From Anolis carolinensis (Eukaryota): a stretch of 64,000 nt of DNA. The position numbers and the translations under genes were made by a program. Of the stretch, positions 1-62,310 are shown piece by piece. The stretch covers positions 243,671,747-243,735,746 of the forward strand of contig NC_085842.1 of the NCBI RefSeq assembly GCF_035594765.1, given 5' to 3'. Below the pieces are notes generated by a model. The model worked only from the letters and a program-made list of their open reading frames with translations. It was not told where the DNA came from and ran no database searches. The number at the start of each line of letters is the position of its first letter. Positions within the stretch are counted from its first letter, which is position 1.

Positions 1-567
1 AGGTAGTTTTACCTGGAAAACTGACCTGAGATTTAAGATATTTCAAGATTTTTTCCACCTGTTTGTCATTTGGATTCCACACTTTCAGTTAAAATTTTGA
101 AATAATTTAAAGGACATGTCAATTTTTTGCTCTTATAGCCATTCATGAGATTTGGGAGAGGAAAAAAAAAAGAAAGAAAGAAATGGTGAGACTCTGACAC
201 CATATCAGCTAAGAATGGAATAAAATGCTCTTGGTTAGGGGATTTTATTTGGATGACAAAATAAACTTGTTCTTACAGAAAGGGTGTGTCAAGGGCCTTA
301 GCAAGTCAAGGTCTTCATGTTCTCATTTGCATAACATTTTAGGAGCCATCTGAAAAGAGAATAAGCAAGGCATACATTCAGGTTTTACACTGATCTTTGA
401 CGAAAGATTACCAAGATTAAATAGCCTTGTAGTGAAAAGGTGAATGTATATATCAAAAGTAGTCCTTGGAAGACATCCAGCTGCATTTCCTTCTTAGCAA
501 AGGTCATACACATGCTGTTTTGCAATCTACCTATATGTTGAATAATTCATTTTGACTAGTTGTCCAA

Positions 568-2144: not shown

Positions 2145-2298
2145 TGGCCCAAAGCGTTACGACTGGACTGGGAAAAAATGGGTGTATTCTCACGATGGCA
2201 TGTCACTTCATGAACTACTGGCAAAGGAACTTTCATTTGCATTCAAAACCAAATTGGACTTATCAACTTTAGCATGTGCTGGACAAGAACATACTTGA
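2145..2298 (+). CDS. FXN: Frataxin, last coding exon (phase-2 start)
   Basis: Polypyrimidine acceptor ...ttattctttcacag|t, then [50 protein letters not shown] (TGA 2296-2298, followed by TAA). Matches the vertebrate frataxin C-terminus (human [30 protein letters not shown]...). Synteny with downstream TJP2. Confidence 0.97.
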
Positions 2299-3163
2299 TA
2301 ATATCTCAGAAATGTAAAGACTTTGAAATTTGTTCCATTGTCTGTTTCTCCATGTTTTGGATGTTGATTGAACTTGAATTTTTTTTTGAAACACTTGTTA
2401 AAGGTCAGTTTTATTAATGGGACGATATTGAAGTGTTTTTCCTCACAAGTTCCATTTTTTTCTTTGGTTTGTGATGTACATTTTTCCTCCTAACCTCTTG
2501 AGCTGGGAACTAGTATTAATAGTTAGCCTACTGTCTTTTTGAAGAACTAATCTCTAGTTGTATCAACTATTCTCCTTTAATTGGAGATTTAACTGAAAAA
2601 CCAAGCTTGATTTATGTAAACTGTGGAGATTATGATGATGAAAAACAATTTCTACAATATGAAAGTCTGCTTATAGAAGCTGTGTTTGTATTGGGATTGT
2701 CGACAAATGCAATGAGTACCATTTCTGCTGAACAGTTAAAACCTTGTGGTTAGGATACTATGAAGAGTAGGACTTTATTATTGTTGATTTTGGGTATTAC
2801 TAGACTAATAGGGAACCTCTTGAAAGAATGGTTCGATTAGCAGCTCATGGTTAATGCAACATTTTGATTTATTCAGTACAATGCTAAAATTATTTTATAC
2901 AAAACAGCCTGGCTTTAGAGCTCTCCTTTCATTCAAGATGGAGACTGATATCCGACAAATATTTGCTGCTAGAGAGAAAGGGAGCTACATAGAAGATTCT
3001 TAATGCCCCAGCATCCCCTTGACAACATTGCCTATTTTGTTCTGTTAGTACATGAGACTACACAGAGAAAGAAGAAAATAGCCTATACTATTCCACAAAT
3101 TCTTTCAACCTTCAGAAGCAGATTTTCGGGGGGGTGGGGGTGCAATGGATAAAGGATAGGTGC

Positions 3164-3478
3164 CACCAGGGGCACAGCGGGTTAAACCACTGAGCTGCTG
3201 AACTTGTTGACCAAAAGGTCGTAAGTTCAAATCCAGGGAGCAGGGTGAGCTCCTGCTGTTAGCCCCAGCTTCTACCAAACTAGCAGTTTGAAAACATGCA
3301 AATGTGAGTAGATCAATAGGTACTGCTCTGGCGGAAGGTAACGGTACTCCATGCAGTCATGCCGGCCACATTGCGTTGAAGCTGTCTACGGACAACACTT
3401 GCTCTTTGGCTTAGAAATGGAGATGAGCACCAACCTCCAGACACGACTAGACTGCATGTCAGGGGAAAACCTTTACCT
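3164..3478 (+). mobile_element. Sauria SINE
   Basis: tRNA-like head, gaaaacatgcaaatgtgagtagatcaataggtac core, acctttacctt tail; TSD taggtgc at 3157/3479. Confidence 0.9.
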
Positions 3479-3585
3479 TAGGTGCACTAACTTCTGTGCC
3501 CAGAAGCTTTTTCTGCTAGTACAAAGCATACACCTAAACATCCAACAATGGGCAGAAAAAACATATAAAACCTAACCCGTATAAG

Positions 3586-3856
3586 GGAGCCCCCGATAAT
3601 GCAATGGGTTAAACCTTTGTGCCAGCAGGACTGCTGACTGACAGATCGGCGATTCGAATCTGGGGAAAGTGCAGATGAGCTCCTTCTGTCAGCTCCAGCT
3701 CCCTATCTGGGGACATGAGAGAAGCCTCCCACAAGGATGGTAAGCATCAAAACATATAGGCATCCCCTGGGCAACATCCTTGCAGATGGCCAATTCTCTC
3801 ACATCAGAAGCGACTTGCAGTTTCTCAAGTCACTCCTGATACAAAAAAAAAAAAAA
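3586..3856 (+). mobile_element. AnolisSINE2-type SINE
   Basis: Full length with poly(A); TSD aaccc(g/a)t(a/g)taagg at 3574/3855. Confidence 0.88.
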
Positions 3857-4351
3857 CCCATGTAAGGTGTAGATCTCTGTACTTTATAAAATCTCAGGCC
3901 ATTTTCAGAAAATTTGACTCAACTATTGAAATTCCACTATTACCTAATTGTAATTTCCCCTGAAACTGAACAATATTGGCAGCAAGATACATGAGAAATC
4001 TAGTTCTGGAAGAGGTAAACTAAAAAGAAATCACTGCAACAGTTTCACATGAAATGTCTGTGATCATGATTGCGATAAACTATTTCACTGAAGAAAAATC
4101 TGATATATTTATGTATTAATATATGTGAATTTTAAGATTGTTGCCCTATTCATAGCAGAATAATTTTACTGGGGGACATTAAAATATTTTAATAATTTTT
4201 AATTATTAAAAACTTTCCATATCCTCCACCCATCCCCTAGGCTATATACTTCTTTTATATCTTTATCCAGGAGCAAAATTTTCTTAATTTCTATACAATA
4301 TTCAATTTGGCTTTGCTGCTTTTTAAACATTCTTTATAAACTATCAATTTA

Positions 4352-4667
4352 TGTTGTTGAAGGCTTTCATGGCTGGAATCACTAGGTTGCTGTGAATTTT
4401 CCAGGCTGTATAGCCATGTTCCAGAAGCATTCTCTCCTGATGTTTCACCTACATCTGTGGCAGGCATCCTCAGAGGTTGTGAGGTCTGTTGGAAACTAGG
4501 CAAGTGGGGTTGTCCAGGGTGGGAGAAAGAACTCTTGTCTGTTTGAGGCAAGTGTGAATATAGCAATTGGCCACTTTGATTAGCATTGAATAGCCTTGCA
4601 GCTTCAAAGCCAGACTGCTTCCTGCCTGGGGAAATCTTTTCTTTGGAGGTGTTAGCTAGCCCTGATT
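4352..4667 (-). mobile_element. Penelope-like (Poseidon-type) retroelement terminal fragment
   Basis: tgttgttgaaggctttcatggc...catcctcagaggttgtgagg...; same sequence as the terminus downstream of the GIY-YIG ORF at 8903. Confidence 0.9.
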
Positions 4668-5378
4668 TTAACTATTAAGAAAGTAGGTTTGCAGAAGTGT
4701 TCAGCTGAATGCTTGATCTATAGAGCATTTTCCTTTGCAAACTGATTTTCTGATCTTTGCCAGGGCTCTAATCATGTCTGGGCTTGTTTGATATTTAAAC
4801 TTCTCTCTGTGCAGTGCAAAGTTCAACAAAAATTCAAGATCCCTCCCACAACCTGTTACTGTGAAGCAAAGTAAAGTAGGGTCAAGATTAATACTCTTTT
4901 TTCTTTATTTCACTTTAGGAAAATCAGATCTTGAAGTTCTTCTACTATTTAAAATTAGGAAAGGCAAAAGAATGGCTTAAGGCACAGACTAATTTAGCTT
5001 TTAAAAACTACTCAGTCTGTATATCCAACTTTAAACAATGAAAACCTCTGCTATTTCTTCCCATCATTTCTCAAGACTTTTTAAAACATATGATCAAAGA
5101 CAATTGGGAAGCAACCATCTTTCTCTCAAAATCCAGTTGGAATTACCCACTTTAGAAGATCAGTGATGAGAATACACTATTTAAAATATATTTGCTGGTA
5201 TAGTTTATGAGAAGCAGAGATAGGCAGAAAGTTTATCAGCTTCTACTAATAGATCATCAATTATTTCTAGTACCGTAATTGTTTAACAAAAGCCTTAACA
5301 AAATGACATTTGTTCATGACCTGAACATGGCTGAAATTAAGAATCTCACATTTTTGTCTGGAAGAAGAGTGACTACTC

Positions 5379-5868
5379 TGTGGTCAAAGGCTTTCATGGC
5401 CAGAATGACTGGGTTGCTGTTAGTTTTCCGGGCTGTATGGCCATGTCCCAGAAAGAATTATCTCCTGATGTTTCGCCTGCATTTATGGCAGACATCCTCA
5501 GAGGTTGTGAAGTCTGTTGGACAATAAATAAAGAACAATACTCAAAACGGGAATTCCAGACAGGAAGTAATCAGGGCCAGCTAACACCTCCCATCAAAGG
5601 ATTTGCCTAGGCAGAAAGTAGCCAGGCTTTGAAGCTGAAAGTCCATTCAAAGCTAATCAAGGTGTCCAATTGCAACATTCACACTTGTGTCAAACAGACG
5701 AGAGTTCTTTCTCCCACCCTGGACATTCCACAGATATATAAACCCCACTTGACTAGTTATCAACAGACCTCACAACCTCTGAGAATGCCTGTCATAGATG
5801 TGGGCAAAACGTCAGGAGAGAATGCTTCTGGAACATGGCCATACAGCCCAGAAAACTCATAGCAACCC
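5379..5868. mobile_element. Penelope-like element, inverted two-arm insertion
   Basis: Minus arm 5379-~5521 and plus arm ~5523-5868; flanking duplication agtgac(t/c)act at 5368 and 5872. Confidence 0.9.
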
Positions 5869-6016
5869 GACAGTGACCACTGTTCAGATATGGTCTATGG
5901 ATTCTTCCAATACATGTTTGTGTTACCTAGTGGATTTTAGGGATCTAGTAAATAAAGAGGAAACAACAAACATGCTGTAAGTTTAAATTCGTAAGTTCCT
6001 GTCTTAAATGCAGAAA

Positions 6017-6220
6017 GTCAGTCTGATGCAATGGGTTTGATTGTTAGACTACAACTGGAGACCAGGGTTCAAATCCTTGCTCAGTTATGCATATCCTGGG
6101 TGACCTTGGATAACCTCAGAGGAAGGTAAAGGCAAAGTCCCTCTAAACAACTCTTGGAAAGAAAATGCACGACAGGATACCGTAAGTAAGAAATAACTTG
6201 GAAGGCACACAACAACAAGA
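6017..6220 (+). mobile_element. Old tRNA/CORE-like SINE with RTE-like tail
   Basis: ggagaccagggttcaaatcc B-box, gggtgaccttgg core, gaaggcacacaacaac tail; further copies at ~14635-14775(-), 15190-15362(-), 27710-27925(-), 36060-36280, 39963-40158, 48587-49457. Confidence 0.7.
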
Positions 6221-6672
6221 ATCTTAAAAAACGGTACCGTAACTAGTTAATCAGGATGTGCTTTCAGTCTCTTCACTTCCTATTATGCACCTTCAAGTCA
6301 TTTCTGACTTATGGGGACCTTAAGGCAAATCTATCTCAGTAGTTTCTTGGCAAGATTTGTTCAAAAGAGGTCTGACATTGCTTTTTTCTAAAGGTGGAAA
6401 GCTTAATTACCTAAAAATAGCACCACCTACACCTGAAAAGGAGCCACAAGGTGGCGGGAAATCTCAAAGTGTGTAATGTAAAACATTAGTGGAAGGAATA
6501 CAAAGAGCCTAAAACCTGAGTCTTTCCCATAGTCATGCAATGCTGACTTCCTGTTGAATAGAAAGCAACAAAACCAATGGGAAATGGAGTTTTCCTGTCA
6601 GATGGCATGACTGGCTTAATTCTTGATCAGAAGAATTCTATGCAGAAATGCTTTTTACAGCTCTTGTTTGCA

Positions 6673-7282
6673 TAGGTTGCTGTGAGTCTTTCAGGCTGTC
6701 TGGCCATGTTCCAGAAACTTTCTCTCCTGACGTTGTACCTACATCTATGGCAGGCATCCTCAGAGGTGTGAGGTATGTTGAAAACTAGGCAAGGGAGGTT
6801 TATATATCTATGTAAGGTCCAGGGTGGGAGAAAGAACTCTTGTCTGTTAGATGCAGGTATGGATGTTGTAATTAATCACCTTGATTAACTCTAAAATCAG
6901 GACAGTAAATAAAGAACAACACTCTGAAAACAGAGGAATTCCAGACATGAAGCAATCAGTGACAGCTAACACCTCCAAACAAAAGATTCTTCCAGACAGG
7001 AAGAAGCCAGGCCTTGAGGCCACAGGACCATCAAATGCTAATCAAGGTGATTAATTACAACATCCACACCTGCCTCCAACAGACAAGAGTTCTTTCTCCC
7101 ACCCTGGACCTTATACAGATATGTAAACCTCCCTTGCCTAGTTTCCAACAGACCTCACACCTCTGAGGATGCCTGCCACAGATGTGGGAGAAACGTCAGG
7201 AAAGAAAGTTTCTGGACCATGGCTATACAGCCCAAAAGACTCACAGCAACCTAGTGATTCCGACCATGAAAGCCTTCAACAA
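6673..7282. mobile_element. Penelope-like element, inverted two-arm insertion
   Basis: Minus arm 6673-~6888, plus arm ~6889-7282; flanks cttgtttg(c/t)a at 6663 and 7285. Confidence 0.9.
7160..7200 (+). ncRNA. Minimal hammerhead ribozyme motif (Penelope)
   Basis: cctCTGAGGAtgcctgccacagatgtgggaGAAACGTCagg; core intact, stem II closing pair mismatched. Confidence 0.6.
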
Positions 7283-7296
7283 TACTTGTTTGTATA

Positions 7297-7612
7297 GGTT
7301 AAAAAAAAAGGTTTTCCCTGACGTTAAGTCCAGTCGTGACCAACTCTGGGGGTTGGTGCTCATCTCCATTTCTAAGCCAAAGAGCCGGCGTTGTCCGTAG
7401 ACACCTCCAAGGTCATGGAGCGCAGTTACCTTCCCGCCAGAGTGGTACCTATTGATCTACTCACATTTGCATGTTTTCGAACTGCTAGGTTGGCAGGAGC
7501 TGGGGCTAACAGCGGGCGCTCATTCTGCTCCTGGGATTTGAACCAGGGACCTTTCGGTTTGCAAGTTCAGCAGCTCAGCGCTTTAACACACTGCACCACC
7601 ACCAGGGGCCCC
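7297..7612 (-). mobile_element. Sauria SINE
   Basis: Reverse complement of the 3164 element; perfect 14-bp TSD tacttgtttgtata at 7283 and 7613. Confidence 0.92.
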
Positions 7613-8259
7613 TACTTGTTTGTATACATCATTTTAAAATCAGCAATTAGAACTGGTGCTTTGAAGACTCGTTTTCTAGCTAACCTTTAAGATGTTAACC
7701 ATTTCCATGGTTCCCAGCTGCAGGAAGAAAGTTTCGTGTGATTCTATATCTGAAATGTTCAGTCATTTGAATAGAGGTGGAATTACAAATACAGGGAAGA
7801 ATTTGGGTAAATTGCATTGCCAATATCTTATTATTTATCTGTTTTCTTCCTCAATTTAAACAGAACTTGCTGCTCTCAGAGGAGAAATGTTGTAATGGTG
7901 ATGGGTTTGTACTTGTGTTACAAACACACAGACTATTGTGTCAAGTGGTGGGCAAAGACAATTAGAGGAAGTCTGTCCCGAGGAAATGGCAATCTTACTA
8001 AAACACAGAGGGGAAAGGGGAGGGGAAAATATTAGGCATAAATCATAGTGCACAAATTTTGCCCTTCCCAACACAGCAAATATTGTCTTTGGGCGGAGGA
8101 GTTTAAAATCATTTATTATCTCTCTAATGACAGTTGTATTTGTTTGTATTATATATCTCATCTTTCTCAAATGGCTGGCCTGCAAGTGGGCTTCTAACCT
8201 AATTTATGGGATGTCTTGTGCAAGATGGAGCAAGCCCGTTTTCTGCTGCTCCAGAAACT

Positions 8260-8510
8260 AGAACCCAATCCAGTAGATTCCAATTACAAGAAAAGAGATT
8301 TTATATAAACGTTAGGAAAATTCTATGTAAACATTAGGAAGAACTTCTTTATTTTAAGAGCTGTTTGACAACGGAGTAGACTGCATTGAAGAGTGGTGGC
8401 CGGTCCTTTGGAGATCTTTAAATAACAGTTGTATGAACATATTTCATAAATGCTATAGTTGTGTATACCTGCATGGCAATGGATTTAAGCAGTTCCAAGA
8501 TTCTATGATC
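8260..8510 (+). mobile_element. Old CR1 3' fragment
   Basis: caagaaaagagattt...aacattaggaagaacttc...attctatgat. Confidence 0.7.
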
Positions 8511-8902
8511 AGGAAAAACACAAACTGTGTGTAGATAAGTATTGTTTATATGTATATATCAACAAGGCCAAATAATTAAAGTAAAAAAATAAATAATTTA
8601 AACTTTATAAATGATGACAGGTAAAACTGGAATATTAAAAAGTCTTGTCCATCCATTGGAAATCCCTGTCTGTATTAGGCAGGCAGTTGCCTCAACAGAC
8701 ATGTCTTTTATTTCCAGCAAAAGCAAACCTAACTCCTTGGCAGAAGTTCCCTATTTGCTCATCCTAAGCACCTCTGTCTTTGGTCACCCTGACCCAGCCA
8801 TTGCTGACATTAGACTATGGTTTAAAACTAAAACAGCTTCTCCATCTTAAAATGGTAAAGAGAATAGATAAATAAATGCTAAGTTCAACATAGCATTTAG
8901 CT

Positions 8903-9562
8903 TTGCAGGCGTCTATCGTATACCAGGCAGCTGTGGACAAGTCTACATAGGGACCACCAAATGCAGCAATGCCCAAACACGAATCAAGGAACACGAAAGG
9001 CACTGCAGACTAATTCAGCCAGAGAAGTCCGCCATAGCACAGCACTTGAGGAACCAACCTGGACACAGCAGATTATCTGAGAACACAGAAATGCTGGGCC
9101 ACTCTTAACAACCACCATGTCGGACTACACAGAGAAGCAATTGAAATCCACAAGCATGCAGACAATTTCAGCAGGAGGAAACCATGAAAATGACCAAAAT
9201 CTGGCTGCCAGTATTTAAAAAAAAACTTTAAAATCAGGGCAGTAAATAAAGAACAACACCCAAAAAGCAGGGGAGTTCCAGACAAGAATCAATCAAAGCC
9301 AGCTAACACCTTTTAACAAAGGATTCCCCCAGACAGCAACCAGCCAGGCACTCAAGCTGCAAGGCCATTTGCAACATTCACACCTGCCTCTAGCAAACAA
9401 GAGTTCTTTTTCCCACTTTGGACATTCCACCGATATATAAACCTCACTTGCCTAGTTTCCAACAGATCCCTCCACCTCTGAGGATGCCTGCCATAGATGT
9501 GGGTGAAACGTCAGGAGAGAATGCTTCTGGAACATGGCCACACAACCCGGAAAACTCATAGT
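8903..9562 (+). mobile_element. Penelope-like element 3' part with decayed GIY-YIG endonuclease
   Basis: From 8905: AGVYRIPGSCGQVYIGTTKCSNAQTRIKEHERHCRLIQPEKSAIAQHL... (GVY...YIG motif), premature stop/frameshift, then the terminal repeat. Confidence 0.93.
9475..9515 (+). ncRNA. Minimal type I hammerhead ribozyme motif in Penelope terminus
   Basis: cct-CTGAGGA-t-gcctgc[catagat]gtgggt-GAAA-C-GTC-agg: intact CUGANGA/GAAA/GUC core, stem II, short stem I (cct/agg), palindromic ACGT stem III. Confidence 0.75.
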
Positions 9563-10454
9563 AATCCAAAGAGAATAAAGTTGGATGTTTTCACACTTAA
9601 ATATCTCAATATATTCTCCCAGCAGTTTCATTGTAAAAGATAAAAAATAGATTTCATGGATTACACCGTCTAGCAGCAAGTATAGGAAACCTTCAGTGCC
9701 AACTTCTCAAACCATCCCTCCAGAAAGGGCTGAAGCTAGCAAAGAATAATTAGCGGTATTCTAAATCCCGTTCTGAAGAAGCAGCCATGGTTGATGATTT
9801 TGAAACCTGCTGCGGTGACATCCACTTGAACCATTCCTCTTTCCAGTTCCTGGTTTAGGCCATTTGCCAATCCAACCATATGTGTCTTCACACTTAATCA
9901 AGCTTCTATCTAGATAATCTTCCCCCTCCAGAAAGGCTTAGAGTCAGAACAGTAGGATTCTGGTTCAGGGAGATAATTTTTTTACCAACTCTTTTTACTC
10001 TTTCCTTTTAAGTCACAGTGGAACTTCCCATGTTACAGAGATGCGTGTCTAATTTCTTTTTACTGAGTTGGCTGATTCCACCCTGTTCTCTTTCAAAGGC
10101 CAGAAAGATCAAGAATTCAGTGTAATAAAGCAGACCTCACATCTCCCAAGAATGCAGTCTATTTGGGTGGTGCAAAAAGAAAAGGTAGACATTATTGCTG
10201 GACAAACGAGGGCCAAGATTGCACTACTGGAACTGTAGCAATTACAGCATCAGGATCGATATGGAGCTTGGAGAACGTGTCTAGAAGACAAATTCAAGAG
10301 GGCTGTTGGATGATATTTCATCAGGAAAATAATCAAGCAGTCTTCTAGTTGGACTGCAACTCTCAGCAGCCTCAAACAATGAGGAATATTGGGAGATGCC
10401 ATCCAGTAACATTTAGTGATCTGTATGATTCCTATAGAGTCAAATACCCTAGAG

Positions 10455-10963
10455 CGGAGCTTTCCAAACTGTGTGTCGGGACACACTAGTGTGTCGCCTA
10501 TAGTCCCCAGGTGTGAAAAATGCTTACCCCCTGCTCCCACAAACAAAGGCTGCTGCTGTTCAAGTGTAGATACTGTTCTAAGTTTTATAAGTTGCACAAT
10601 TTGTTGATTAACTTGCAGTAAATGCCACTACAATTGATACGTTTCTAATTAAGGAAAGAAAAATCAGTTGACAGTAATGTTTGTGATGAACCACATGGAG
10701 TTGCTATAGAGGAAATTACACAAGAATCAACTATAGTGCATATTGTGTAAAGGAAAAACTTTCCACACCTTGTTTATATGGTAAAGATTATATGAATCTC
10801 ATATATATTATACATTATTTAATTTAATATAATATATATTGCATGAAACTCTGATAAGGGGTTGGCTTAACCTTCAGTTTTCTAGCAAAACTGAATTACT
10901 GTGTTGTGAAAGGATGCATGTCTAAAAAGTATGTCAACAACATAAAAAGTTTGGAAAGCTGTG
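10455..10963. mobile_element. Non-autonomous hAT element
   Basis: TIR agctttccaaact; perfect 8-bp TSD ccctagag at 10447/10964. Confidence 0.88.
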
Positions 10964-10971
10964 CCCTAGAG

Positions 10972-11182
10972 ATACCAGATCCCATGTGATCTTGGAAGTT
11001 TAATAGGGTCAGCTCTGGTTAGTACAGTACTTGAATAGAAGATCACCAATGAATACCAGGTTCTGTAGGCTGTATTTCAAAGGAAGAGCTGGCAAAAATC
11101 AAATCTGAGTATTCCTTGGTTAGGAAAACCCTATGAAATTTATGAGGTTGTCGTACATTGATGGGATTTGAAGCCACACACA
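10972..11182 (+). mobile_element. 5S rRNA-derived SINE (SINE3 type)
   Basis: Degenerate 5S head (gatcttggaag...ctggttagtac...gaataccagg..ctgtaggc) plus RTE-like 3' body. Confidence 0.7.
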
Positions 11183-13149
11183 TAATTCCCATTCCAGGTC
11201 TACATTCTCTTGGTTTTGGCCAAATATGTTACATGCTATCTGCAGGGATATGCCCCTTCAGAAACCCTATTTTTATTTCCTAGTTACAGGGAGTTGTTGC
11301 AACCAAGGACTGCATTGAAGTGCCACTTCCTAGCCAGAAAATTCTGACTCAAAGTCTTCAAGCCTTATCCTGTTAAAAGTTACTTGAAATCCAGAAGTCA
11401 AACTAATGAAGCCAAAGGCAGGAGCAACAGTAGCTCCTTCAAAATTGAAAGGTCCCTTGGTGCCAGTGGAACACCAAGGCTCTATCTGCACTCCCATATT
11501 GCTGTCTAGACTCATATCATGCATTATTATTATAATAATATTTATATCCCACTTTTTCTCTCCACAAAGGAGATGCAAAGTCATTTAAAATCTACAAATA
11601 TACAAACATTAAAACATAATTAAAGATCAATGGAATAAAAAATTCCCTGTTAAAATTCATAAAAACTGATCAGGAACATATGACCCAGCCAGTTTTAATA
11701 ATGAATTTTAAACTCATTATATTTTAATCTTTGTTCTGTGTATATAATATATGCATTTTATAGAAATACTTTTTAATATGTGTATTTTATGTAATGATTT
11801 TGTGTTTTTAGCTATGTTGCAACCTGCCTGGAGCTACGAGAAGAGGCGGGTAGGAAATAAAATTATGATGATGGTGATGCATTAAATGGCTGTGTATACG
11901 GACCCCAAACTAAAGCACCATTTAATAATTTGAAGGATGTTGTGTTGATGTGGCCCTTGTGCACAAACACAATCCAAAATGACTGTATGCATCCTCCCAA
12001 CTGATTCAGGTAAAGTGTTTTCCTCGGCTTCTATTTTGAGGGGTGTTGTTATAAAATGGTATGCTGATAAGAAATTGGATAGGATGCTGAAATAGTGTTG
12101 ATACAGCATGTCCAGTTGTTGTGTACTGTTAGGTGGTTTCCAATGTATCCTATCATGGGGCTCATCCCAGGTCACACAGTGGCTTCAATGGCTGGATGAG
12201 AAACTGAACCCTGGCTTAAAGTTGATCTCAAACCACTACATTGTCGGCTGTTAGGAATTGTGGCAGTTGAAGTCCAAATTGCCTGGAGGGCTGCAGTTTG
12301 CCTATGCCTAGTGTAGGTGCACCCAGGGATTTAGAAGTGATATAAGGTGCAGCTATACCTTAGAAGTAATGCAGTTTGACACCACTTTAGCCAACATGGC
12401 TCAATGTGAATTGTAGTTTTACACTGTCTTTAGCCTTCTCTGCCGAAGAGTGCTGGTGTCTTGCCAAACTCGAGTTCTCGTGACTTTGTAGCATCAAGCA
12501 AAGCATCACGATACCAGGGAAAGGGAAGGATGGGGGATCCTATTTAAACAGGATCAAATAATTTAAATTCTTTCAGCTTCTTCCTCCCTCGATTCCACAG
12601 CAGTCATTCCTTGTAAGTTTCTGTCCACAACTAGCACTGACTTGCTCACTATGACACCAAACAAATACTGGGCCATGACGGCCTCCTTTTTTATCGATCG
12701 CTCCTCCTCAGGCCCATTTTGCCCAGGCTCTGAACCGGTCTTTCCTGCTCCACTTGCCAGGCAGAGAGACCCTATCTCAGACATGGGGAAACGGTAGGCT
12801 GTTAGGAATTGTGGGAGTTGAAGTCTAAAACACCTGGAGGGCCCAAGTTTGTCCATGCCTAGTCTAACCCTATAAAATCCTCAGGGAGCCAAGAAAGAAA
12901 AACAGCAGGTGCATTTACACTGTGGAATGAATGCAGTTTAACACCACTTGAACCGCCCTGGCTCAATGCTGTGGAGTCATGGGAGTTGTAATCTGGTGAG
13001 AGGCACCAGTGCTTTTTAGAAGAGAAGCTTGTGAAACTGCGGCTCCCAGGATCCCATAGCCTTGCGCCATGGTAGTAAAAGTGGTGTCAAACTGTGTTAA
13101 TCCTACAGTGTAGCTGCATTGCATGGCTCCTCCTTCATTCTCTGGAGGT

Positions 13150-27448: not shown

Positions 27449-27696
27449 TGTTGTCGAAGGCTTTCATGGCCAGAATCACAGGGTGGTTGTGTGTTTTCGG
27501 GCTGTATGGCCATGTTCCAGAAGCATTCTCTCCTGACATTTCACCCATATCTATGACAGGCATCCTCAGAGGTTGTGAGATACTGTATATATACCTCACA
27601 ACCTCTGAGGATGCCTGCTATAGATGTGGGTAAAACATCAGGAGAGAATGCTTCTGGAACATGGCCATACAGCCCAAAAACACACACAACAAGCCC
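27449..27696. mobile_element. Penelope-like termini forming a short hairpin insertion
   Basis: Two inverted terminal arms around an ~14-nt AT spacer; TSD gattgttgc(t/a)ttg at 27436 and 27697. Confidence 0.9.
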
Positions 27697-51000: not shown

Positions 51001-51601
51001 CGAAGGAGGAGTTGTTTAAAGCTCCGGCAGGGCCGGCCCCACTATGGAGGCCACGTGAGGCCGCCGCCTCGGGCGCAGGTCTGGGGGGGCGCCGTCAGGC
51101 TGGGCGGGAGGCGGGGCACCGCCCTGACGGTGCCCCGCCTCCCGCCCAGTTCGCCCTCGCCCGTCTGGCCTTTTCTAGCTGGCCAGACTGCAGCGGAGGT
51201 CCCTCCAGGCTGCGATTGCGGCCTGGAGGGACCCCCGCTGCAGTCTGGCCAGCTAGAAAAGGCCAGACGGGCGAGCGGGAGTAGCGCGGGAGGCGGGGCC
51301 AACTCTGGCCCCGCCCCCCCACCCAGCGTGCCCTGGCCCCGCCTCTCATGCAGCGTGGGAGGAGGGGCCAGGGCACGCTGGGCAGGTGGCGGGGCCAGGG
51401 CGCGGGAGGCAGGGCCGGAGGCGGGGGCGCTTTTCAGCACCCCCGCTTAACATCAAAAATTATCTCCGGCCGGCCCTGAGCTCCGGACAATGCGGTTGCT
51501 GTTGCCCGTTTTTGGTCTAAAACTATTTAGTTGCTTGTGATTTCCTTTTTTCATCATTTTAAAATGTATTTGTTATGCAGTGCTTTTGACACGAAATAAA
51601 A
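51001..51601 (+). mobile_element. Vingi/Ingi-like LINE 3' end (split by the hAT)
   Basis: Removing the hAT gives KEELFKAPDNAVAVARFWSKTI* plus a 3'UTR ending tgacacgaaataaaa; 12-bp TSD atggcagttaaa at 50989/51602. Confidence 0.72.
51028..51478. mobile_element. GC-rich non-autonomous hAT element
   Basis: TIR cagggccggcc/ggccggccctg; perfect 8-bp TSD agctccgg at 51020/51479. Confidence 0.92.
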
Positions 51602-51639: not shown

Positions 51640-52560
51640 AGCGTGCATATACCCCGCCTTTATACTTTGGTGGCCAGTCTCTGCGTTCCCACTCCTTTGC
51701 AAAACTTCTTCCCATCCTCATCTTCTCTTTCCTTCTCTCCTCCTCCTCCTCTTCGCACACCCCCTCCTTAATTCCCCCGGGGTCTCCCTGGAGTGGTGCC
51801 CGAAGGCCGAGGCCCTGAGTGGCTGGTGCCCCTGCCTCCCTCGCATCATGTGAGGCGCCTGCAACTAGCCCACCCTCGCCTGCCTGGCCCACTCCGCGTC
51901 CCAGAGGGAAAGGCAGGCGCGCGCGCGATGTTGCAATGGGAGCAGCCCAGGGTTCCGCCGGGAGCGAACCAATCGCGCCCAAAGGGGGGAGGGAACAGGT
52001 CGGTACCATCTCCCGCCGCCGCCGCCGCCGGCTCCCGCTTTTTCCCTACCTTCTCGCTTTCCTCCCTGCTGCGCGTTTCTCTTCCAGTTTGTCCGCAGTG
52101 CTAGAGACATGCGTAGGCGCGAACGGCATGGGGTAACTCTCATAAACTCCCCCCTTTTTTCCCCCCGGAATGGTAGCGCCGGCTGAAGAATGGCTTGGGA
52201 AGTCAGTGCTTGTGGGGCGAACCGGTTTGGGGAGGAAGGGGGAGGGATGCCGGGAACTGGCTCTGCGGGAAGTTTGGAGAGCCCGAAACAAGGAGGCGGG
52301 ACGCTTCCTGGCTTGCGGGGAGGGAAGGCGCGCCTGAGCTGCCTTTAGCCCGAAAAAGTTTGTGGAGATTGAGAGACTTTGGGCAGCCCTGCGAGATGCC
52401 GGTGCGAGGAGGCGAGCGCTCCCTGCGAGCCATGGGCTCGCCTTGGTTCGGGGTGAGTAGCCCGGGGGTTACTAATGGGTGCCTTTCCCTCCTCAAGTCC
52501 TTCTCCCTTCCCTCCTCCCTCCAGCAGACCACAGAGCGGAGGTGTCACGCTGCCTCTACA
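51640..52560 (+). promoter_or_regulatory. TJP2: CpG-island promoter/5' leader of TJP2 exon A
   Basis: High GC and CpG against an AT-rich background; GC box ~51651, GC dinucleotide run 51917-51927, TTGCAAT 51931, CCAAT 51969-51973, (CCG)6 52013-52030. Confidence 0.85.
52396..52452 (+). CDS. TJP2: TJP2 (ZO-2A) canonical first coding exon
   Basis: ATG CCG GTG CGA GGA...: MPVRGGERSLRAMGSPWFG, then GGG|gtgagt donor (phase 0). Human ZO-2A starts [26 protein letters not shown]. Lies in a CpG island downstream of FXN. Confidence 0.9.
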
Positions 52561-52561
52561 C

Positions 52562-52696
52562 CACTGGTTCCCAACCTGTGGGTCCCCAGATGTTTTGGTC
52601 TTCAACTCCCAGAAATCCTAACAGCTGGTAAACTGGCTGGGATTTCTGGGAGTTGTAGGCCAAAACACTTGGGAACCCACAGGTTGAGAACCACGG
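52562..52696. mobile_element. Short hAT MITE
   Basis: Palindromic body, TSD (c/g)tctacac; similar copies at ~50382-50508 and ~62995-63129. Confidence 0.82.
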
Positions 52697-52980: not shown

Positions 52981-53247
52981 ACTTCAGCCCTCCCTTCAGG
53001 TGTTTTGCACTTCAACTGCCACAATTCCTAACAGTCTGTAGGCTGGGTTGCTGTGAACTTTCCGGCCTTCATGGCCCATGATCCAGAAGCATTCTCTCCT
53101 GACATTTTGCCTACATCTATGGCAGGCATCCTCAGAGGTTGTGAAGTCTGTTGGAAACTAGTCAAGTGGGGTTTATGTATCTGTGGAAAGTTCAGGGTGG
53201 GAGAAAGAATTCTTGTCTGTTGGAGACAAGTGTGAATTTTGCAATTA

Positions 53248-53666
53248 GCATTTAAAAAAATAATTTTATTCAGAATTTTTGCAAGTAGAATACATGATTT
53301 TAAAAAAATACAATCAGAAAGGCATTCACAAGTGTGGGAAAGAAAAACTGGGAATAGGGTAAACTGGGGTAGGGGTAAAAGGTATAGCTTAAAAGAATAA
53401 ACAAAACAGAAAAAAGGGGAAAAGGGGGGATAAGGAGTAGTTTTCGGTCTTCCATTCTTTGCATTTTCATCTTATATATAAATCCTCTTTTCTTGTATTT
53501 CTGGTCTCTTTATATTCACTCCTAGGGGACACCTTTTTACTGTATTTAGTCCTTTGCCATCTTTCTATATTCTTCATATGTCTTCCAATCTCTTCTTTTT
53601 AGTGGTTTGCCACTACTTTCCTTCAATAAGAAGGTTAGTCTGTCCATATCAAAGATTTCATCTAGT
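53248..53666 (-). mobile_element. L1-clade LINE 3' end
   Basis: Minus frame LDEIFDMDRLTFLLKESSGKPLKRRDWKTYEEYRKMAKD*, 3'UTR and AATAAA; 17-bp TSD tgt(g/a)aat(t/g)ttgcaatta at 53231 and 53667. Confidence 0.7.
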
Positions 53667-54499
53667 TGTAAATGTTGCAATTAATCACCTCGATTAACAT
53701 TGAAAAGCCTTGCAGCTTCAAGGCCTGGCTAATTCCTGCCTGGGGAATCCTCTCTTGGATGTGTTAGCTGGCCTAGATTGCTTCCTTTCTGGAATTCCCC
53801 TGTTTTCAGACTCTCATTCTTTATTTACTGTCCTGATTTTAGAGTTTTTAAAATATTGGTAGCCGGATTTTGTTCATTTTCATGGTTTCCTCCATTCTGT
53901 TAAAAATGTCCACATGCTTGTGGATTTCAGTGACTTCTCTGTGTAGTCTGGCATGGTGGTTGTTAGAGTGATCCTGCATTTCTGTGTTCTCAAATAATAT
54001 GCTGTGTCCAGATTGGTTCATCAGTGCTCTGCTATGGCTGACTTCCATGGCTGAGTTAGTGTGCAGTGCCTTTCATGTTCCTTGATTCGTGTTTGGCCAA
54101 TGCTGTGTTGGGTGATCCCTGTGGAGACTTGTCCACACCTGAGAGAAGCCATTGAAATCCACAAGCATGTGGACAATTTCAACAGAAAGGAGGAAACCAT
54201 GAAAATGAACAAAATCTGGCTACCAGTATTAAAAAATTCTAAAATCAGAACTGTAAATTAATAACACTCAGAAAAACAGACAAATTCCAGCCTTGAAACA
54301 ATCAGGGCCACCTCCCAACAAAGGATTTCCTCAGGCAAGAATCAGCCAGGAGTTGATACTGCAAGGCTTTTCAGTGCTATTAAAGGTGATTAATTGCAGC
54401 ATTCACATTTGCCTCCAACAGAGAAGAGTTCTTTCTCCCATCCTGGACCTTCCACAGATATATAAACCCCACTTGACTAGTTTCCAACATACCTCACAA

Positions 54500-54540
54500 A
54501 CTCTGAGGATGCATGCTATAGATGTGGGTGAAACGTCAGG
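54500..54540 (+). ncRNA. Minimal hammerhead ribozyme motif (Penelope)
   Basis: actCTGAGGAtgcatgctatagatgtgggtGAAACGTCagg; core intact, stems partly mutated. Confidence 0.55.
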
Positions 54541-55605
54541 AGAGAATGCTTCTGGAACATGGCCATATAGCCAGGAAAATTCACAGCAGCCCAGTGATTC
54601 CAGCCATGAAAGGCTTCGACAACAGCCGGTAGGCTGTTAGGAATTGTGGGAGTTGAATTCCAAAACACCTGGAGGGAGGGCCGAAGTTTGCCCGTGCCTT
54701 GTGTACACTGTAGCACTAATGCAGTTAAAGACCACTTTACCATGGAATTATAGGAGTTGTAGTTTGGCAGGGCACTCTGGTAGCGAACGTTAAAGAACTT
54801 GTAAAGCTACACAATTCCATAGCACTGAGCCATGATGGTTAAACACTGTTAATTCTGCAGTGTAGGGGCACCCCAGTTAGTGTCAAACTGCACAAATTCT
54901 ACAAAATGTAGATTGTAGATAAAGCAAAAGTTTCTGATGCAGCTAGTAGACTTGTAATATTATGGCTTTCTGAATATAATGAAGTACACTTTCCCTCTGA
55001 TAACCAACAGCGAAGACGCCAAAGAGGTGTTGAAAACTCGATGTGTCAGAAGTGGAATGTCAGAATCCAGTTTAGAAGTTATAAGCAGCTCAAATACCGT
55101 TTCTGGTGGCTATTATGTACCTATGGCATTTGTTTTTAGTCTTCACTAGAAGACATCAAGATGGCACTCATGGGGTTATCTGTGTTGGGTTGGGAGAGAA
55201 GCACAGTGAGCGTAAGTGCTGAGAAAGCATTTCAGCCCAGGTGTTTATCTGCCATCATATCTGAGTAGATTGTGTTGACACTTGCTGGAGGAGGAGAAAT
55301 GTTTACATGAGCTTGAGGCAGAGTTTTGTTTCCCTAGAGTCCTTGAGATGCCTTCAGTATCCTTAGCACAGGTAGAATGATAGTACTATACAATTTGCAT
55401 TTTTTTAGGACAAGGGTACCTGTATTTGCTCTCCCATTAAGGTGGTTCAATTGATCTATAAACAAACACTGTAACTTCCCTGAATGTTTGAGTAGAAATA
55501 TCACACACTACATTTTTTGGTTAGGTTGGTCTCAGTGCCTACAATCTGTTTGCCATGCACGTGCATGTCTCTGTCTTCCTATTGAGAGTAACACTTATTC
55601 CACTG

Positions 55606-56397: not shown

Positions 56398-56674
56398 TGC
56401 TGTCAAAGGCTTTCTTGACCGAAATCACTGGGTTGCTGTGAGTTTTCTGGACTGTATGGCCATGTTCCAGAAGCATTATCTCCTCTGACATTTCGCCTAC
56501 ATTTCTGGCACAGTTCTTTCTCCCACCCTGGACTTTCCACAGATATATAAACCTGACTTGCTTAGTTTCCAACAGACCTCACAACCTCTGGGGATGCCTG
56601 CCATAGATGTAGGTGAAACGTCAGGAGAGAATAGTTTGGAACATGGCCATACAGGCTGGAAAACTCACAGCAAC
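56398..56674. mobile_element. Penelope-like element, short inverted insertion
   Basis: Inverted terminal arms; TSD aaagtg(t/c)ttta at 56385 and 56675. Confidence 0.88.
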
Positions 56675-58512
56675 AAAGTGCTTTAAAATTTCAAAAAGAG
56701 TGCTTTATAATTCAGATGGTATTTTAACATATGTGAAGTAACAATTACTATGATATACAAAAATGGGTAACAAAAATGACAGCAATCAACTAGCCTGACC
56801 CATGGCCATCCAGAAACACCTGTGATTCTTGTCCAGATAATTCTCCAGGCTCCTTGTAATTTTGCATCTCTGTGCAAACAGAGATTAGTGCTTTAAAGAT
56901 AATATTTTAATGTTCTCATGGGTTAATCATCAGTTGGTGGGGGAGTATCTTTTAAGTACCTATTGAACTAACTTAATAGAAAGTGCAGCCGAAGTAGATG
57001 GTGGTCTGTAGCCAAAGTATACACTTCTTATTAAGGACTAGGAGATGAGCTGTTATTTTATAATATGCGAAAGTTAGCAAAATCTATATTAAAAAATATG
57101 TTGGCCCAGATAGAAGTAGTACACAGCTTGAAGATTGGGCAAGATTGCAACAGTAGTACACATAGCCTAAACATATTATATGACGTGTTGTAATTGCTTA
57201 CTTTGCGTGTTCAAAAATTCCTGGTGCATCCTTTAGCAAGATGCAATAATGTGTTAGAAATATTTTAGGACAGCCTGCAGCGGAGTTTTTTATTGCAGGC
57301 TTCCGATACCTGCTGCCCTCCAGATGTTTTGGACTGCACCTTCCATGACTGCTGGCCATGATGGGATCTGAAGTCAAAAACAAAATGAGGTCACTAGGTT
57401 GGGGAAGACTGGCATAAAACAATAGCACCAAGCAGGCACAGTAGTACCAGACAGACACAGTAGTACCAAATAACAAGGCCAAACGTGCATGACACCATTG
57501 CATTCTTTCTCAACACAACAGTCAGCCTACTGTATTTGTTCATTTGTTTGCTGTGTTATATGTGGTCAATTAAAAATACAAATATTTTCACCTTCATTTA
57601 AATCAGCCGGGCTTCCCATGTTGTAGCTTCTTTCATTTTAGTATTGTATAGTAATCTTAATAGATGTTGGAAGCTCTTTGCTAATGCCTTCTACATAATA
57701 GCTGTTGGAAATGATGAGATTATCTATTATTTATGTGTAGTTTAAATAATGTAGTTTACTTTTCTGAATCCATTGCCTCTGTACATGGCTATTCCCTGAA
57801 GAGTGCTGAAGCTTAGGGAATTATGGAAATGTTTTAGCTTTTCATGGGTTATAGTCTTGGGGATAAGATAGGCCATTTGCTGCTGCACTGTTTCTAGGCA
57901 TTTCTTAGATGACAGTGATGAACATAATATTTGGTGGCTTGCTTTCCCAAAGGACTTCTTCTTTTGTGCTCAAATTGTGACTTGTTCTTTTTTTCCTGAG
58001 GCTAATGCCCTTATCTTATTGCTTGTGCATGGTTATTTGCCTTGTTTGATATGCAAGGAATGCAATTAGGAAATACATGTGTGTGAGAGGGGGGGGGGGA
58101 GAGTGTATTCTTTTAAGGGAGCTGTTTTGCGGAACTATTATCCCTTCCAGTTTTCTAAAAAAATTTTTTTTTGTTTGGCACTCTGAAGCTAAACACCAAG
58201 AGAAGTGGCAGCAATTCTACACAGTAGTGCAATTTGGACCTAAAGGCCTTCTATGATAATAAACTGGTTAGTCTGGATGAGGGATTCTGGCGATTGTCCA
58301 GTAAAGTAATTTTCCCAAGCACTGATTAAAGGTGGCAGATACAACACATGTTTTGTGTTTTTCTCTTGAGCAGCAAGCTGAGATCCACTGTCTGCTCACA
58401 GCATTGTTAACATGTTATTCCACTTTAGCTACCATGGCTCTATCCTATGGAATCCTGGGATCTGTAGTTTGGTAAGGCACTAAATGTCTTCTGGCTGAGA
58501 GTTCAAAATATA

Positions 58513-59954: not shown

Positions 59955-62029
59955 AAAGTAGTGTATGAAAAAGTAGTAGTAGTCTTCTTCCTCAAGGTCC
60001 TTGCTTCCAGTCCAGTAGATAAATACAACAAAGTCATATTGGGGCACACTGCTGTTTTGTGGGTGAGGTGTCCAGCAAAATATTGGGGTTCGGGGTGGGG
60101 AATGAAAGGTATTTAGAGACCTATATTCCAGAAACTGAAGAAATTTCCAAGCTTTTTTAAAATGAGACTGGAGTTTTGCTTCATCCTTTGTACCACTTTT
60201 TATTAAAGTCCTGCTTTAGGGGAAAGCAATATTCTGCTTTTCAATAGGAAAGCTGTAGAGCCCTCTTTAAAATTGTAGATAACTATATCTCATTTCCTCT
60301 TATATGGGACCCAAGATGTCCCATGTTTTTTGATCGCTGGAGGAGTTTTGAGGAGGAATTGCTTGTTCATTTCTTTAGAAAGGACAAATCCTTAATAAAC
60401 TTTTCTGTGGTTTGTATAGAGGCAGAAATGAATGCATTCTTTTCATTTTGTGAAGGGAAGCCAAATACTCAGTGCTTTGCACCTTCTTTTGAACTCTTGA
60501 TTCTTTTCTTTTGTAATCATAAAAGAATGTTAAGTTGTATGTAATTCATGTATAGTTACTCATATTGAGCTGCGGCCCCCATGGTCAATACAGTGCTCTC
60601 TGCTTCCAGATATAAAGGAGGGCTCCCTACTGTGAGAACTGGCCAAGCAGCGTCTATTGAGGCTGGAAAACATCCTTTGATGCAGTGTGCTAGAAAAGGG
60701 GTGGCAAAATATTCATGCAAGAACCAAATTCCGCTTCTAATTGCTCTTCTCCCTTTTGCTTTCCTAACAAGAATTTCTCTGTGTTCTATTGTTCTCATCG
60801 TGCTAAAAAGAGAGAAAAAGACAGGGAGGGCACTTGGCAGAAAGCAGCATTTGAAATCATGGCTCCTATCTGTTGAAACACGCACACAGTAATAACTCAT
60901 TTCCTATATCCTAAGCCATTTTTTCTTTTGTGGACAGGGAGAGGAAGTGTCACAGTTCTAGTGCCATTTGGTTTGTTTTTACACCTGACACACTGTTAGC
61001 TGAAAATGAACTTGGAGCAACAAGTGGGATTTTCAGTGCTTTTTCTTTTTCTCAGGAGACAGTTTATGTGATCTTGTTGTATATAGTAAAATAAGTGAAG
61101 AAATCTGAATGTATGTATTGCTTGGCCTTAAGCTACATGTAGCAATATGAGGAAAAGGTTGGAAATGGTGTGTTATATGGTAAATATAATATAGGGTATT
61201 AAATGTTTAAATCATGGTTTAAACAAGTGCCTACTTCAAGTCAAAAGTGTAAAATAAACACTTTCCTTCCTTAGCACAATGTTAAAAGCAACATATGAGG
61301 ATTATACACACAGTTTCCAGCCTGAAACAGTTTTGGGATTAAAAATTATGGCAGCTAGTTTTAAAGGGCTGTAGCTTGCCAGTTGAAAAGAGACTGCAAA
61401 GAAAAATATTGAAATGAGTTACCAAGGAGCTGGTGTTTGATGCAGGCAGAAACTTCTGTTACAGAAGAAGTAGGGCAAGGTCTGAGAGATTCATATGGAC
61501 ACTTTGCTTTCCTGGGTTGTTACCACAATAAAGCCAAAGAGGCGATAAGTGCAGAAGAAAAGAAAGAAGCAGTTAAATGGGGCCTTGGAGGATATCAATA
61601 GTGGCTTTGTTTCCTGACTAATGAAACGAAGCAGTTCCAGTTTTTTTTTTAAATAAAGGCTTTTGCAAATGTATCAAACAAGTTACCCTATGTCTGTGGG
61701 TTTCTATCCCTCCCCTGCTCAGTTCTTGCATTCTCTTGCCCAGACCTAACAATTACAGTGCAAACAGTTTACAATGGATTATTCAATAGACAAAGAGGTC
61801 AGTGTCTGAAAAATCCTCAGAATTAAGCAAAGAGGTTCCTTGTGGTGACTGTCCTAACTCACCAATGAGTTAAATGACTTAATACAGTTTATAACATCAT
61901 TTTAAGTAGAGCAGGGTGGTGTCAAAGTATATGCATGGAAGCTAGGATCACACGTACTTTGAAGACAACTCCTTTGGAAACTTGAGTTATGGTGATACAG
62001 TTTACAGATAAGTGTAATAAGCCTAAACA

Positions 62030-62310
62030 CCCTAAAGACACCAAACCCCATCTGACCTTGGAAGCTAAGCAGGGCCAGCCCTGGTTAGTAATTGGATGGG
62101 AAGCTGCCAAGAAAACGCAGTGATAGATTCATCTTAAGGTCGGCATAGTTCAGAAACGCCTTGAAGGAGCACACAACAACAAAAACAAAAGCTGTATTTA
62201 AGAAGAAGGAACTGGTAAAAATAACTTCTGAGTTTTCCTTGTCTAAGAAAATCCTGTGAACTTCATGGGGCCCCATATGTTGACAGACAACTCGACAGCA
62301 CACATGCACA
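62030..62310 (+). mobile_element. 5S rRNA-derived SINE (SINE3 type), interrupted
   Basis: tctgaccttggaagctaagcagggccagccctggttagtaattggatggg = 5S A/C boxes; same 3' body as the 10972 copy. Confidence 0.75.

What the first reader, a model, noticed from the sequence alone, without database searches (positions are those of the whole stretch)
9475..9515. Hammerhead ribozyme cores carried by the Penelope termini
Seen: cct-CTGAGGA-t-gcctgc/gtgggt stem-GAAA-C-GTC-agg, a CUGANGA...GAAA...GUC core with predicted cleavage after C9512. About ten homologous motifs occur in the window. The core is fully intact at 9475, 7160 and 54500. It is altered, often by CpG-type transitions, at ~5777, ~27603, ~56586 (+) and ~4436, ~5464, ~6726, ~27532, ~53098 (-). 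Established: Penelope-like elements carry minimal type I hammerheads whose palindromic stem III (here ACGT) requires dimer folding. Inference: the intact copies are sense to FXN read-through RNA (7160, 9475) and to TJP2 intron RNA (54500), so they could cut host transcripts if two motifs pair.
Basis: partly seen in the sequence, partly recalled or inferred. Interest (0 to 1): 0.75.

Follow-up and report, generated by a model that had tools for sequence, protein, structure and literature searches.

The report
Decayed anole Penelope hammerhead copies
These motifs are broken-off tail ends of a known lizard jumping gene (a Poseidon-type Penelope element) whose small self-cutting RNA has already been described and tested, and the copies here are likely decaying passengers that would rarely if ever cut the neighbouring genes' RNA.

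Summary
The motif is real: 11 full 41-nt copies and one partial copy. Four pass a generic minimal-hammerhead descriptor, against 0.015 in shuffles. It is already known. The 9475 copy matches the hammerhead of the anole Poseidon element PAc, tested in vitro in PMC11167929, at 40 of 41 nt, with the same cut site (after 9512) and the same overlap with the ORF start. 'Fully intact' needs correcting. None of the 11 keeps the core, the G10.1-C11.1 pair and the ACGT palindrome together. 7160 and 54500 fail the descriptor; 4436, 5464 and 27532 pass it. Host cutting is unlikely. The published motif cut only with PAc protein. All copies end at about +81 to +120, short of the +172 that PAc needed in the insertion assay. 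Copy-private changes hit core and flank alike (3/110 vs 32/1078; low power). Each of the three sense motifs behind FXN is predicted to pair with an antisense copy. One premise holds: four runs with a spliced FXN contig also cover unique sequence on both sides of 7160. Earlier scan notes reached the same verdict for Penelope hammerheads in other genomes. Interest 0.12.

The parts
9475..9515 (+). Minimal type I hammerhead motif. Stem I 9475-9477/9513-9515; C3-A9 9478-9484; extra U 9485; stem II 9486-9491/9499-9504 (G10.1-U11.1 closing pair); G12-A14 9505-9507; ACGT palindrome 9508-9511; C17 9512
   Evidence: 40 of 41 nt equal to the tested PAc motif printed (compared by eye)
8895..9565 (+). 5'-truncated Poseidon-type Penelope copy: broken GIY-YIG C-terminus (8896-9295), pseudo-LTR, ORF start ATG 9484, end at about +81
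6887..7285 (+). Truncated copy, motif 7160-7200 (core kept, G10.1/A11.1 mismatch, C17 7197), long tail end
6673..6871 (-). Inverted copy, motif 6726-6766 (G12A, A13C); 199 bp at 90% to the 7160 copy
5519..5868 (+). Truncated copy, motif 5776-5816 (G8A, G12A)
5387..5521 (-). Inverted copy, motif 5464-5504 (core and G10.1-C11.1 kept, palindrome ACAT)
4354..4667 (-). Solo antisense copy, motif 4436-4476 (core kept, G-U closing pair, palindrome ACAT)
27460..27686 (.). Head-to-head inverted pair: motifs 27532-27572 (-; core kept, ATGT) and 27602-27642 (+; G12A, ACAT)
53044..54141 (-). One minus-strand copy split by a 454-bp insert (53253-53706); motif 53098-53138 (G12A)
   Evidence: (query 34-471 and 467-674 contiguous)
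54142..54627 (+). Plus-strand copy head-to-head with the previous one; motif 54500-54540 (core kept, stem I and stem II mismatches, G-U closing pair, C17 54537)
56406..56675 (.). Inverted pair: partial motif at about 56470-56510 (-) and motif 56585-56625 (+; A6G)
2145..2298 (+). Host context: last coding exon of frataxin (FXN), stop 2296-2298
   Evidence: Pfam PF01491 E=2.5e-08; contigs of 4 of 4 runs join here from outside the stretch
52396..52452 (+). Host context: candidate first coding exon of TJP2 in a CpG island, followed by a GTGAGT donor (inferred)
   Evidence: name rests on recalled synteny and a recalled N-terminus; not confirmed

Best explanation
The motifs are the hammerhead ribozyme of a Poseidon-type Penelope-like retrotransposon, carried in the 3' ends of truncated copies that are likely decaying without selection and would seldom cleave host RNA. 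In the active element the motif lies in the pseudo-LTR across the ORF start (stem II encodes the protein's first residues). It cleaves after C17 only with help: in vitro the PAc protein (published), and by architecture a dimer through ACGT (inferred). Reverse transcription starts shortly downstream of the motif, so each insertion, however truncated, carries it. After insertion the two CpGs in the motif (11.1/12 and 15.2/16.2) decay. In RNA running past FXN the sense motifs are predicted to be held in long duplexes with antisense copies.
For: Shown here: the 9475 motif equals the tested PAc motif at 40 of 41 nt, 7160 at 39, 54500 at 37, none at 41 (by eye). The cut site is 26 nt past the ATG, as published. 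The GIY-YIG piece hits Anolis RT proteins at 79-85%. P0003 (836 aa, RVT_1 E=8.9e-14) begins with the peptide read from 9484 (21 of 24 identical), and only its residues about 697-831 and 1-55 align in the window. Copy ends fall in two groups, about +81..86 (6 of 12) and +114..120 (6 of 12) (partly by eye), matching the published tail and the +111-118 RT start. Copy-private non-CpG changes: core 3 of 110 vs flank 32 of 1078, Fisher p=1.0. G12 is lost in 4 of 11, as often as G16.2 (3 of 11). Predicted: isolated 41-mers pair the core with the cut site (P of G5:C17 0.98-1.0 in 11 of 11). In the MFE of 4300-9620, 38, 37 and 41 of 41 nt of motifs 5776, 7160 and 9475 are paired, all with the antisense motifs 5464, 6726 and 4436. 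Published: no cleavage without PAc protein and no RNA-seq reads ending at the cut site; metazoan minimal motifs cleave weakly even as dimers.
Against: The neutrality test has 11 copies and hand-set homology limits, so power is low. The crude count before trimming showed the core more conserved than flanks (3/110 vs 148/1389, p=0.005). Shared changes remain rarer in the motif (6/385 vs 43/1078, p=0.02); I read this as selection on source elements. U at 11.1 in 7 of 11 copies may be partly a source-element variant, in which case 9475 is a competent motif; I found no paper on the G10.1-U11.1 effect. Folding is equilibrium prediction: the 9475-4436 duplex spans 5 kb and may not form in time. With 30-nt flanks the core/cut-site pairing is no longer uniform (P 0.0-0.8). 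The +172 requirement was measured for insertion, not for cleavage. RNA does cover the region around 7160.
Confidence: 0.88

Rival explanations
1. One copy, most plausibly 9475, cleaves the 3'-extended FXN transcript often enough to matter, acting as a terminator or destabiliser with help from PAc protein, a host chaperone or a second motif.
For: 9475 differs from the tested ribozyme by one letter and passes the descriptor. It is the only sense motif without an antisense copy within about 1.5 kb. Four runs with a spliced FXN contig cover unique sequence far downstream, one as far as 8954. PAc is expressed in anole RNA-seq.
Against: The copy ends at about +81, before the RT-start stem-loop. AATAAA at 8588, 8871 and 9245 lie ahead of it. 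Its same-sense partners are 7160 (closing-pair mismatch, 2.3 kb away) and 5776 (dead). A one-active-site dimer shape scores -10.9 vs -30.8 kcal/mol for the best 7160+9475 co-fold (the model ignores tertiary contacts). No sign of selection. No cut-site reads in the published search.
Confidence: 0.05
2. Some copies keep residual activity and cleave rarely, for example by pairing in trans with abundant Penelope RNAs, with no selected role and no measurable effect on FXN or TJP2.
For: 6 of 11 keep the core. The ACGT palindrome allows pairing with any family member. Short repeat contigs from elsewhere in the genome pile up on these stretches in all four runs.
Against: Four-base trans pairing must compete with predicted intramolecular duplexes of about 100-330 bp; activity is low even in favourable constructs.
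Confidence: 0.06
3. The hammerhead look is a by-product of the protein-coding start of the element, not a ribozyme lineage.
For: From 9484 on the motif is the ORF start. There is no covariation among these copies (1 of 9 pairs with a double change; 89 of 500 shuffles as high). No Rfam hammerhead hit.
Against: C3 and G8 lie before the ATG. C3G and G8C abolish cleavage and the double mutant partly rescues it in the near-identical PAc motif.
Confidence: 0.01

Closest known systems
Hammerhead of PAc (Repbase Poseidon_Ac, Anolis carolinensis); Frangieh et al. 2024, PMC11167929
   Same: 40 of 41 nt at 9475; ORF start at stem II; cut 26 nt past the ATG; ORF N-terminus; two classes of 3' end (tail).
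   Different: The window holds only 5'-truncated, mutated copies without RT. None equals the tested motif and none reaches +172 of the ORF. They lie 3' of FXN and in a likely TJP2 intron, often as inverted pairs.
Minimal hammerheads (min-HHR) of metazoan Penelope-like elements; Cervera and de la Pena 2014, PMC4209133
   Same: Type I layout, extra nucleotide between 9 and 10.1, long stem II, no stem III beyond a palindrome, mostly solo copies, some close pairs on opposite strands.
   Different: Stem I is 3 bp here (4-5 bp in the Schistosoma families); the conserved G10.1-C11.1 pair survives in only 3 of 11 copies.
Non-LTR retrozymes (bioRxiv 10.64898/2026.07.22.740005)
   Same: Hammerhead-bearing, pLTR-related, non-coding Penelope derivatives in vertebrates.
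   Different: No same-sense tandem units here; the 5' ends are ragged and several copies keep GIY-YIG coding remnants.

Membership tests
Minimal type I hammerhead of Penelope-like elements | Core C3 U4 G5 A6 N G8 A9, G12 A13 A14, A15.1, U16.1, H17 | tested here: met
   9475 and 5 more of 11 copies keep it
Minimal type I hammerhead of Penelope-like elements | Stem I closes 5' and 3' ends; stem II of 6 or more pairs after one extra nucleotide | tested here: met
   9475: 3 Watson-Crick pairs in stem I; stem II 3 Watson-Crick + 3 G-U; passes descriptor. 7160 and 54500 do not.
Minimal type I hammerhead of Penelope-like elements | G10.1-C11.1 pair (highly conserved) | tested here: not met
   G-U at 9475 and 54500, G/A at 7160; kept in 3 of 11. 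Present in the source motif, so this lowers the claim of an active copy, not of descent.
Minimal type I hammerhead of Penelope-like elements | Palindromic 15.1-16.1 segment in place of stem III | tested here: met
   ACGT in 6 of 11 including 9475, 7160, 54500
Minimal type I hammerhead of Penelope-like elements | Covariation in stems across copies | tested here: inconclusive
   1 of 9 pairs with a double change, 89 of 500 shuffles as high; 11 related copies only
Minimal type I hammerhead of Penelope-like elements | Self-cleavage after C17 | not testable with these tools
   Published for the 40/41-identical PAc motif, with protein only; untested for these copies
Penelope/Poseidon retroelement (PAc family) | GIY-YIG endonuclease at the ORF C-terminus, upstream of the pseudo-LTR | tested here: met
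   PF01541 only E=0.01, below cut-off, but 81% identical to the C-terminal part of P0003
Penelope/Poseidon retroelement (PAc family) | Reverse transcriptase in the same ORF | tested here: inconclusive
   Present in the relative P0003; no RT piece in the window, as expected for truncated copies
Penelope/Poseidon retroelement (PAc family) | Hammerhead overlaps the ORF start; optional 30-40 bp tail | tested here: met
   ATG 9484 and N-terminal peptide; ends at about +81..86 or +114..120
Non-LTR retrozyme | Same-sense tandem units with one hammerhead each | tested here: not met
   Copies are solo or inverted, with ragged 5' ends

The most novel reading that the evidence does not exclude
The 9475 copy, one letter from a proven protein-assisted ribozyme, cuts the long 3' extension of the lizard frataxin transcript when Penelope protein is present, so that transposon expression sets the end or stability of a host mRNA.
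Probability: 0.05. Interest if true: 0.7.

Novelty: already known. Interest (0 to 1): 0.12.

Why it matters
As it stands it adds little: the ribozyme, its element and its protein dependence are published. The window does illustrate two points. Reverse transcription from just behind the motif puts a hammerhead into nearly every insertion. CpG decay at 11.1/12 and 15.2/16.2, together with inverted neighbours, likely silences these motifs in host RNA. If the novel case held, it would be a host mRNA switched by a transposon protein through a domesticated ribozyme. One narrow search (at least 5 of 6 terms) returned 0 papers on that idea, which is weak evidence of absence.

Tried and rejected
Rfam scan: no hammerhead family among 48 matches to E=10; not informative for minimal motifs. 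No whole genome is held, so no genome-wide copy count, source-element subfamilies or selection test. Sequencing runs: no RNA holder is listed on record. I laid 4 of 24 listed runs, all contigs, and no DNA control. Contigs give no strand, ends or level. The empty table of molecule ends, the thin cover at 1-500 and 10001-10500, the contig stops at 8560 and 8568, and the lack of a listed contig bridging 7197 or 9512 (table cut, 74354 pieces not shown) are therefore not used as evidence. A>G differences at 746 and 7027 and T>C at 6991 are not taken as editing: two lie in repeat sequence and no matched DNA run was laid. A loose end at 11573 in two runs has no match in the window and no GT donor; left open. 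A search for TJP2 with the candidate exon found nothing, and no downstream TJP2 PDZ motif was found in the window. A Pfam Ntox30 hit at E=0.015, below cut-off, on the ORF-start peptide is taken as chance. An ancestral CpG in the 3' arm of stem II (9500-9501) was considered and dropped: the published motif has TG there and P0003 has valine. Papers on the G10.1-U11.1 effect were not found. The dimer-cleavage paper of Lunse et al. is not held; I saw only its citation.

Full report
Observation. The 41-nt motif is at 9475-9515 (+) as described, with C17 at 9512. An ungapped scan of both strands at up to 16 mismatches returns exactly 11 copies, each within 6 mismatches: + 5776, 7160, 9475, 27602, 54500, 56585 and - 4436, 5464, 6726, 27532, 53098. 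A twelfth copy without the 5' core lies near 56470-56510 (-). The loose core pattern alone is weak evidence (16 matches vs 7.1 expected). A descriptor that needs stem I, stem II and the core finds 4 hits (9475, 27532, 5464, 4436) vs a mean of 0.015 in 200 shuffles. Rfam gives no hammerhead family among 48 matches.

What carries it. Each motif sits in a repeat of about 100-700 bp; the copies are on average 87% alike. The longest begin with a broken GIY-YIG coding end. That piece hits 22 proteins among 27 candidates, the best four from Anolis at 79-85% identity. P0003 (A. carolinensis, 836 aa) has an RT domain and starts with the peptide read from the ATG at 9484 (21 of 24 residues identical). 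Only its last 140 or so and first 55 residues align anywhere in the window. So all copies are 5'-truncated, and stem II doubles as the ORF start. The host is likely an anole lizard (inferred from these hits).

It is published. Frangieh et al. 2024 (PMC11167929; whole main text read; supplements 1-3 opened, figures mostly pictures) describe this hammerhead in Poseidon_Ac. The ORF begins at stem II and the cut is 26 nt downstream of the start codon, which here is 9512. C3G and G8C abolish cleavage and the double mutant partly restores it. There is no cleavage without PAc protein, and no RNA-seq reads end at the site. Their printed template matches 9475 at 40 of 41 nt (only C11.1 to U at 9504), 7160 at 39 and 54500 at 37; none of the 11 is identical (by eye). 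They place RT initiation at two sites, one at +111-118, with a 30-40 bp tail between them. The window's 12 copies end at about +81..86 (6) or +114..120 (6) (partly read by eye). Cervera and de la Pena 2014 (PMC4209133; results, discussion and part of methods read) define the minimal motif, note the conserved G10.1-C11.1 pair, the palindrome and close pairs on opposite strands, and report no activity as monomer and low activity as dimer. A review passage agrees (PMC6765202).

State of the copies. Six of 11 keep all core nucleotides, 3 keep G10.1-C11.1, 6 keep ACGT, and none keeps all three. Of the three copies called fully intact, only 9475 passes the descriptor, with a G-U closing pair. Whether G10.1-U11.1 is tolerated I could not establish from the library. 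U at 11.1 in 7 of 11 copies may be partly a source variant, which would leave 9475 competent. At the two CpG dinucleotides 17 of 44 letters have changed, and G12 is lost in 4 of 11.

Selection. A crude count made the core look conserved (3/110 vs 148/1389 in flanks, p=0.005). That count included non-homologous junctions and changes shared among copies. After trimming by eye, leaving out 7 CpG-like dinucleotides and the partial copy, changes private to one copy are 3/110 in the core, 8/385 in the motif and 32/1078 in flanks (p=1.0 and 0.47). Shared changes are rarer in the motif (6/385 vs 43/1078, p=0.02). This fits selection on source elements and neutral decay after insertion, with low power. 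Covariation is not above shuffles.

Host context. The FXN last exon is at 2145-2298. In 4 of 4 runs laid, a contig joins at 2142 with 41-479 further letters ahead of it, as a spliced transcript would, although the runs are only guessed to be RNA. The same runs cover unique stretches on both sides of 7160 (X4: 6055-6716 and 7578-8560; X11: 5844-6264 and 7580-8568), and X9 reaches 8954. A long 3' extension of FXN is thus plausible for 7160; strand and end are not shown. AATAAA at 8588, 8871 and 9245 precede 9475. A candidate first TJP2 exon lies at 52396-52452 in a CpG island. The name rests on recalled synteny and a recalled N-terminus, and a search did not confirm it. Human TJP2 also has an upstream promoter (PMC6747478, passage), so 27532/27602 might also be transcribed.

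Would they cut? Isolated 41-mers are predicted to pair C3-U4-G5-A6 with the cut-site strand in 11 of 11 copies; with 30-nt flanks the folds vary. This may be why the published motif needs protein (inference). Four of six sense motifs have an inverted copy within 500 nt, and local folds pair 25-38 of 41 nt with it. The 54500 copy has a 205-bp, 87% inverted partner about 1.3 kb away. In the MFE of 4300-9620 the motifs 5776, 7160 and 9475 pair with 5464, 6726 and 4436; the last pairing spans 5 kb and is the least certain. Same-sense partners are poor: 5776 and 56585 have core changes, and 7160 has a closing-pair mismatch. No copy reaches +172, the minimum for PAc activity in the insertion assay; the requirement for cleavage was not measured. 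Shown: identity, truncation, mutations, RNA cover. Predicted or inferred: folding, neutrality, lack of cleavage in vivo.

Verdict. Already known; interest 0.12. The best explanation is decayed passenger copies (0.88). The boldest reading not excluded is protein-assisted cutting of the FXN 3' extension at 9512 (0.05). Two earlier scan notes on other genomes reached the same kind of verdict; look-ups by sequence and by place returned nothing.

Noticed in passing
window 4354-9565: Three antisense and three sense Penelope copies lie nested in the region behind FXN that RNA contigs cover. They are predicted to form duplexes of about 100-330 bp, like inverted Alu pairs in long 3' UTRs (comparison recalled). 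Possible editing or nuclear-retention substrate; no evidence obtained.
   Followed up: partly
window 2299-8954: Contigs of four runs that hold spliced FXN cover unique sequence up to 6.6 kb past the stop codon, hinting at a long 3' UTR; ATTAAA at 8575 and AATAAA at 8588 and 8871 are candidate signals.
   Followed up: partly
window 52985-54690: The 1.6-kb inverted Penelope pair appears inserted in the centre of a small palindromic element whose two arms flank it; an uninterrupted relative lies at 52588-52670.
   Followed up: no
window 53253-53706: A 454-bp insert splits the minus-strand copy; its minus strand reads a short frame ending in a W..Y..Y pattern that I recall from LINE-1 ORF2 ends. 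Not tested.
   Followed up: partly
protein P0002: A predicted A. carolinensis AKAP7 isoform ends in the Penelope GIY-YIG domain; either exonisation or a gene-model artefact. Not in this window.
   Followed up: no
window 9172 and 11573: Loose ends shared by two runs each. The 11573 letters have no match in the window; the 9172 join lies inside repeat sequence and may come from another locus.
   Followed up: partly
window 51175-51256: GC-rich hairpin in the CpG island (below-threshold microRNA-family matches); 5S-like matches at 62017-62133 and 10949-11071 are also below threshold.
   Followed up: no
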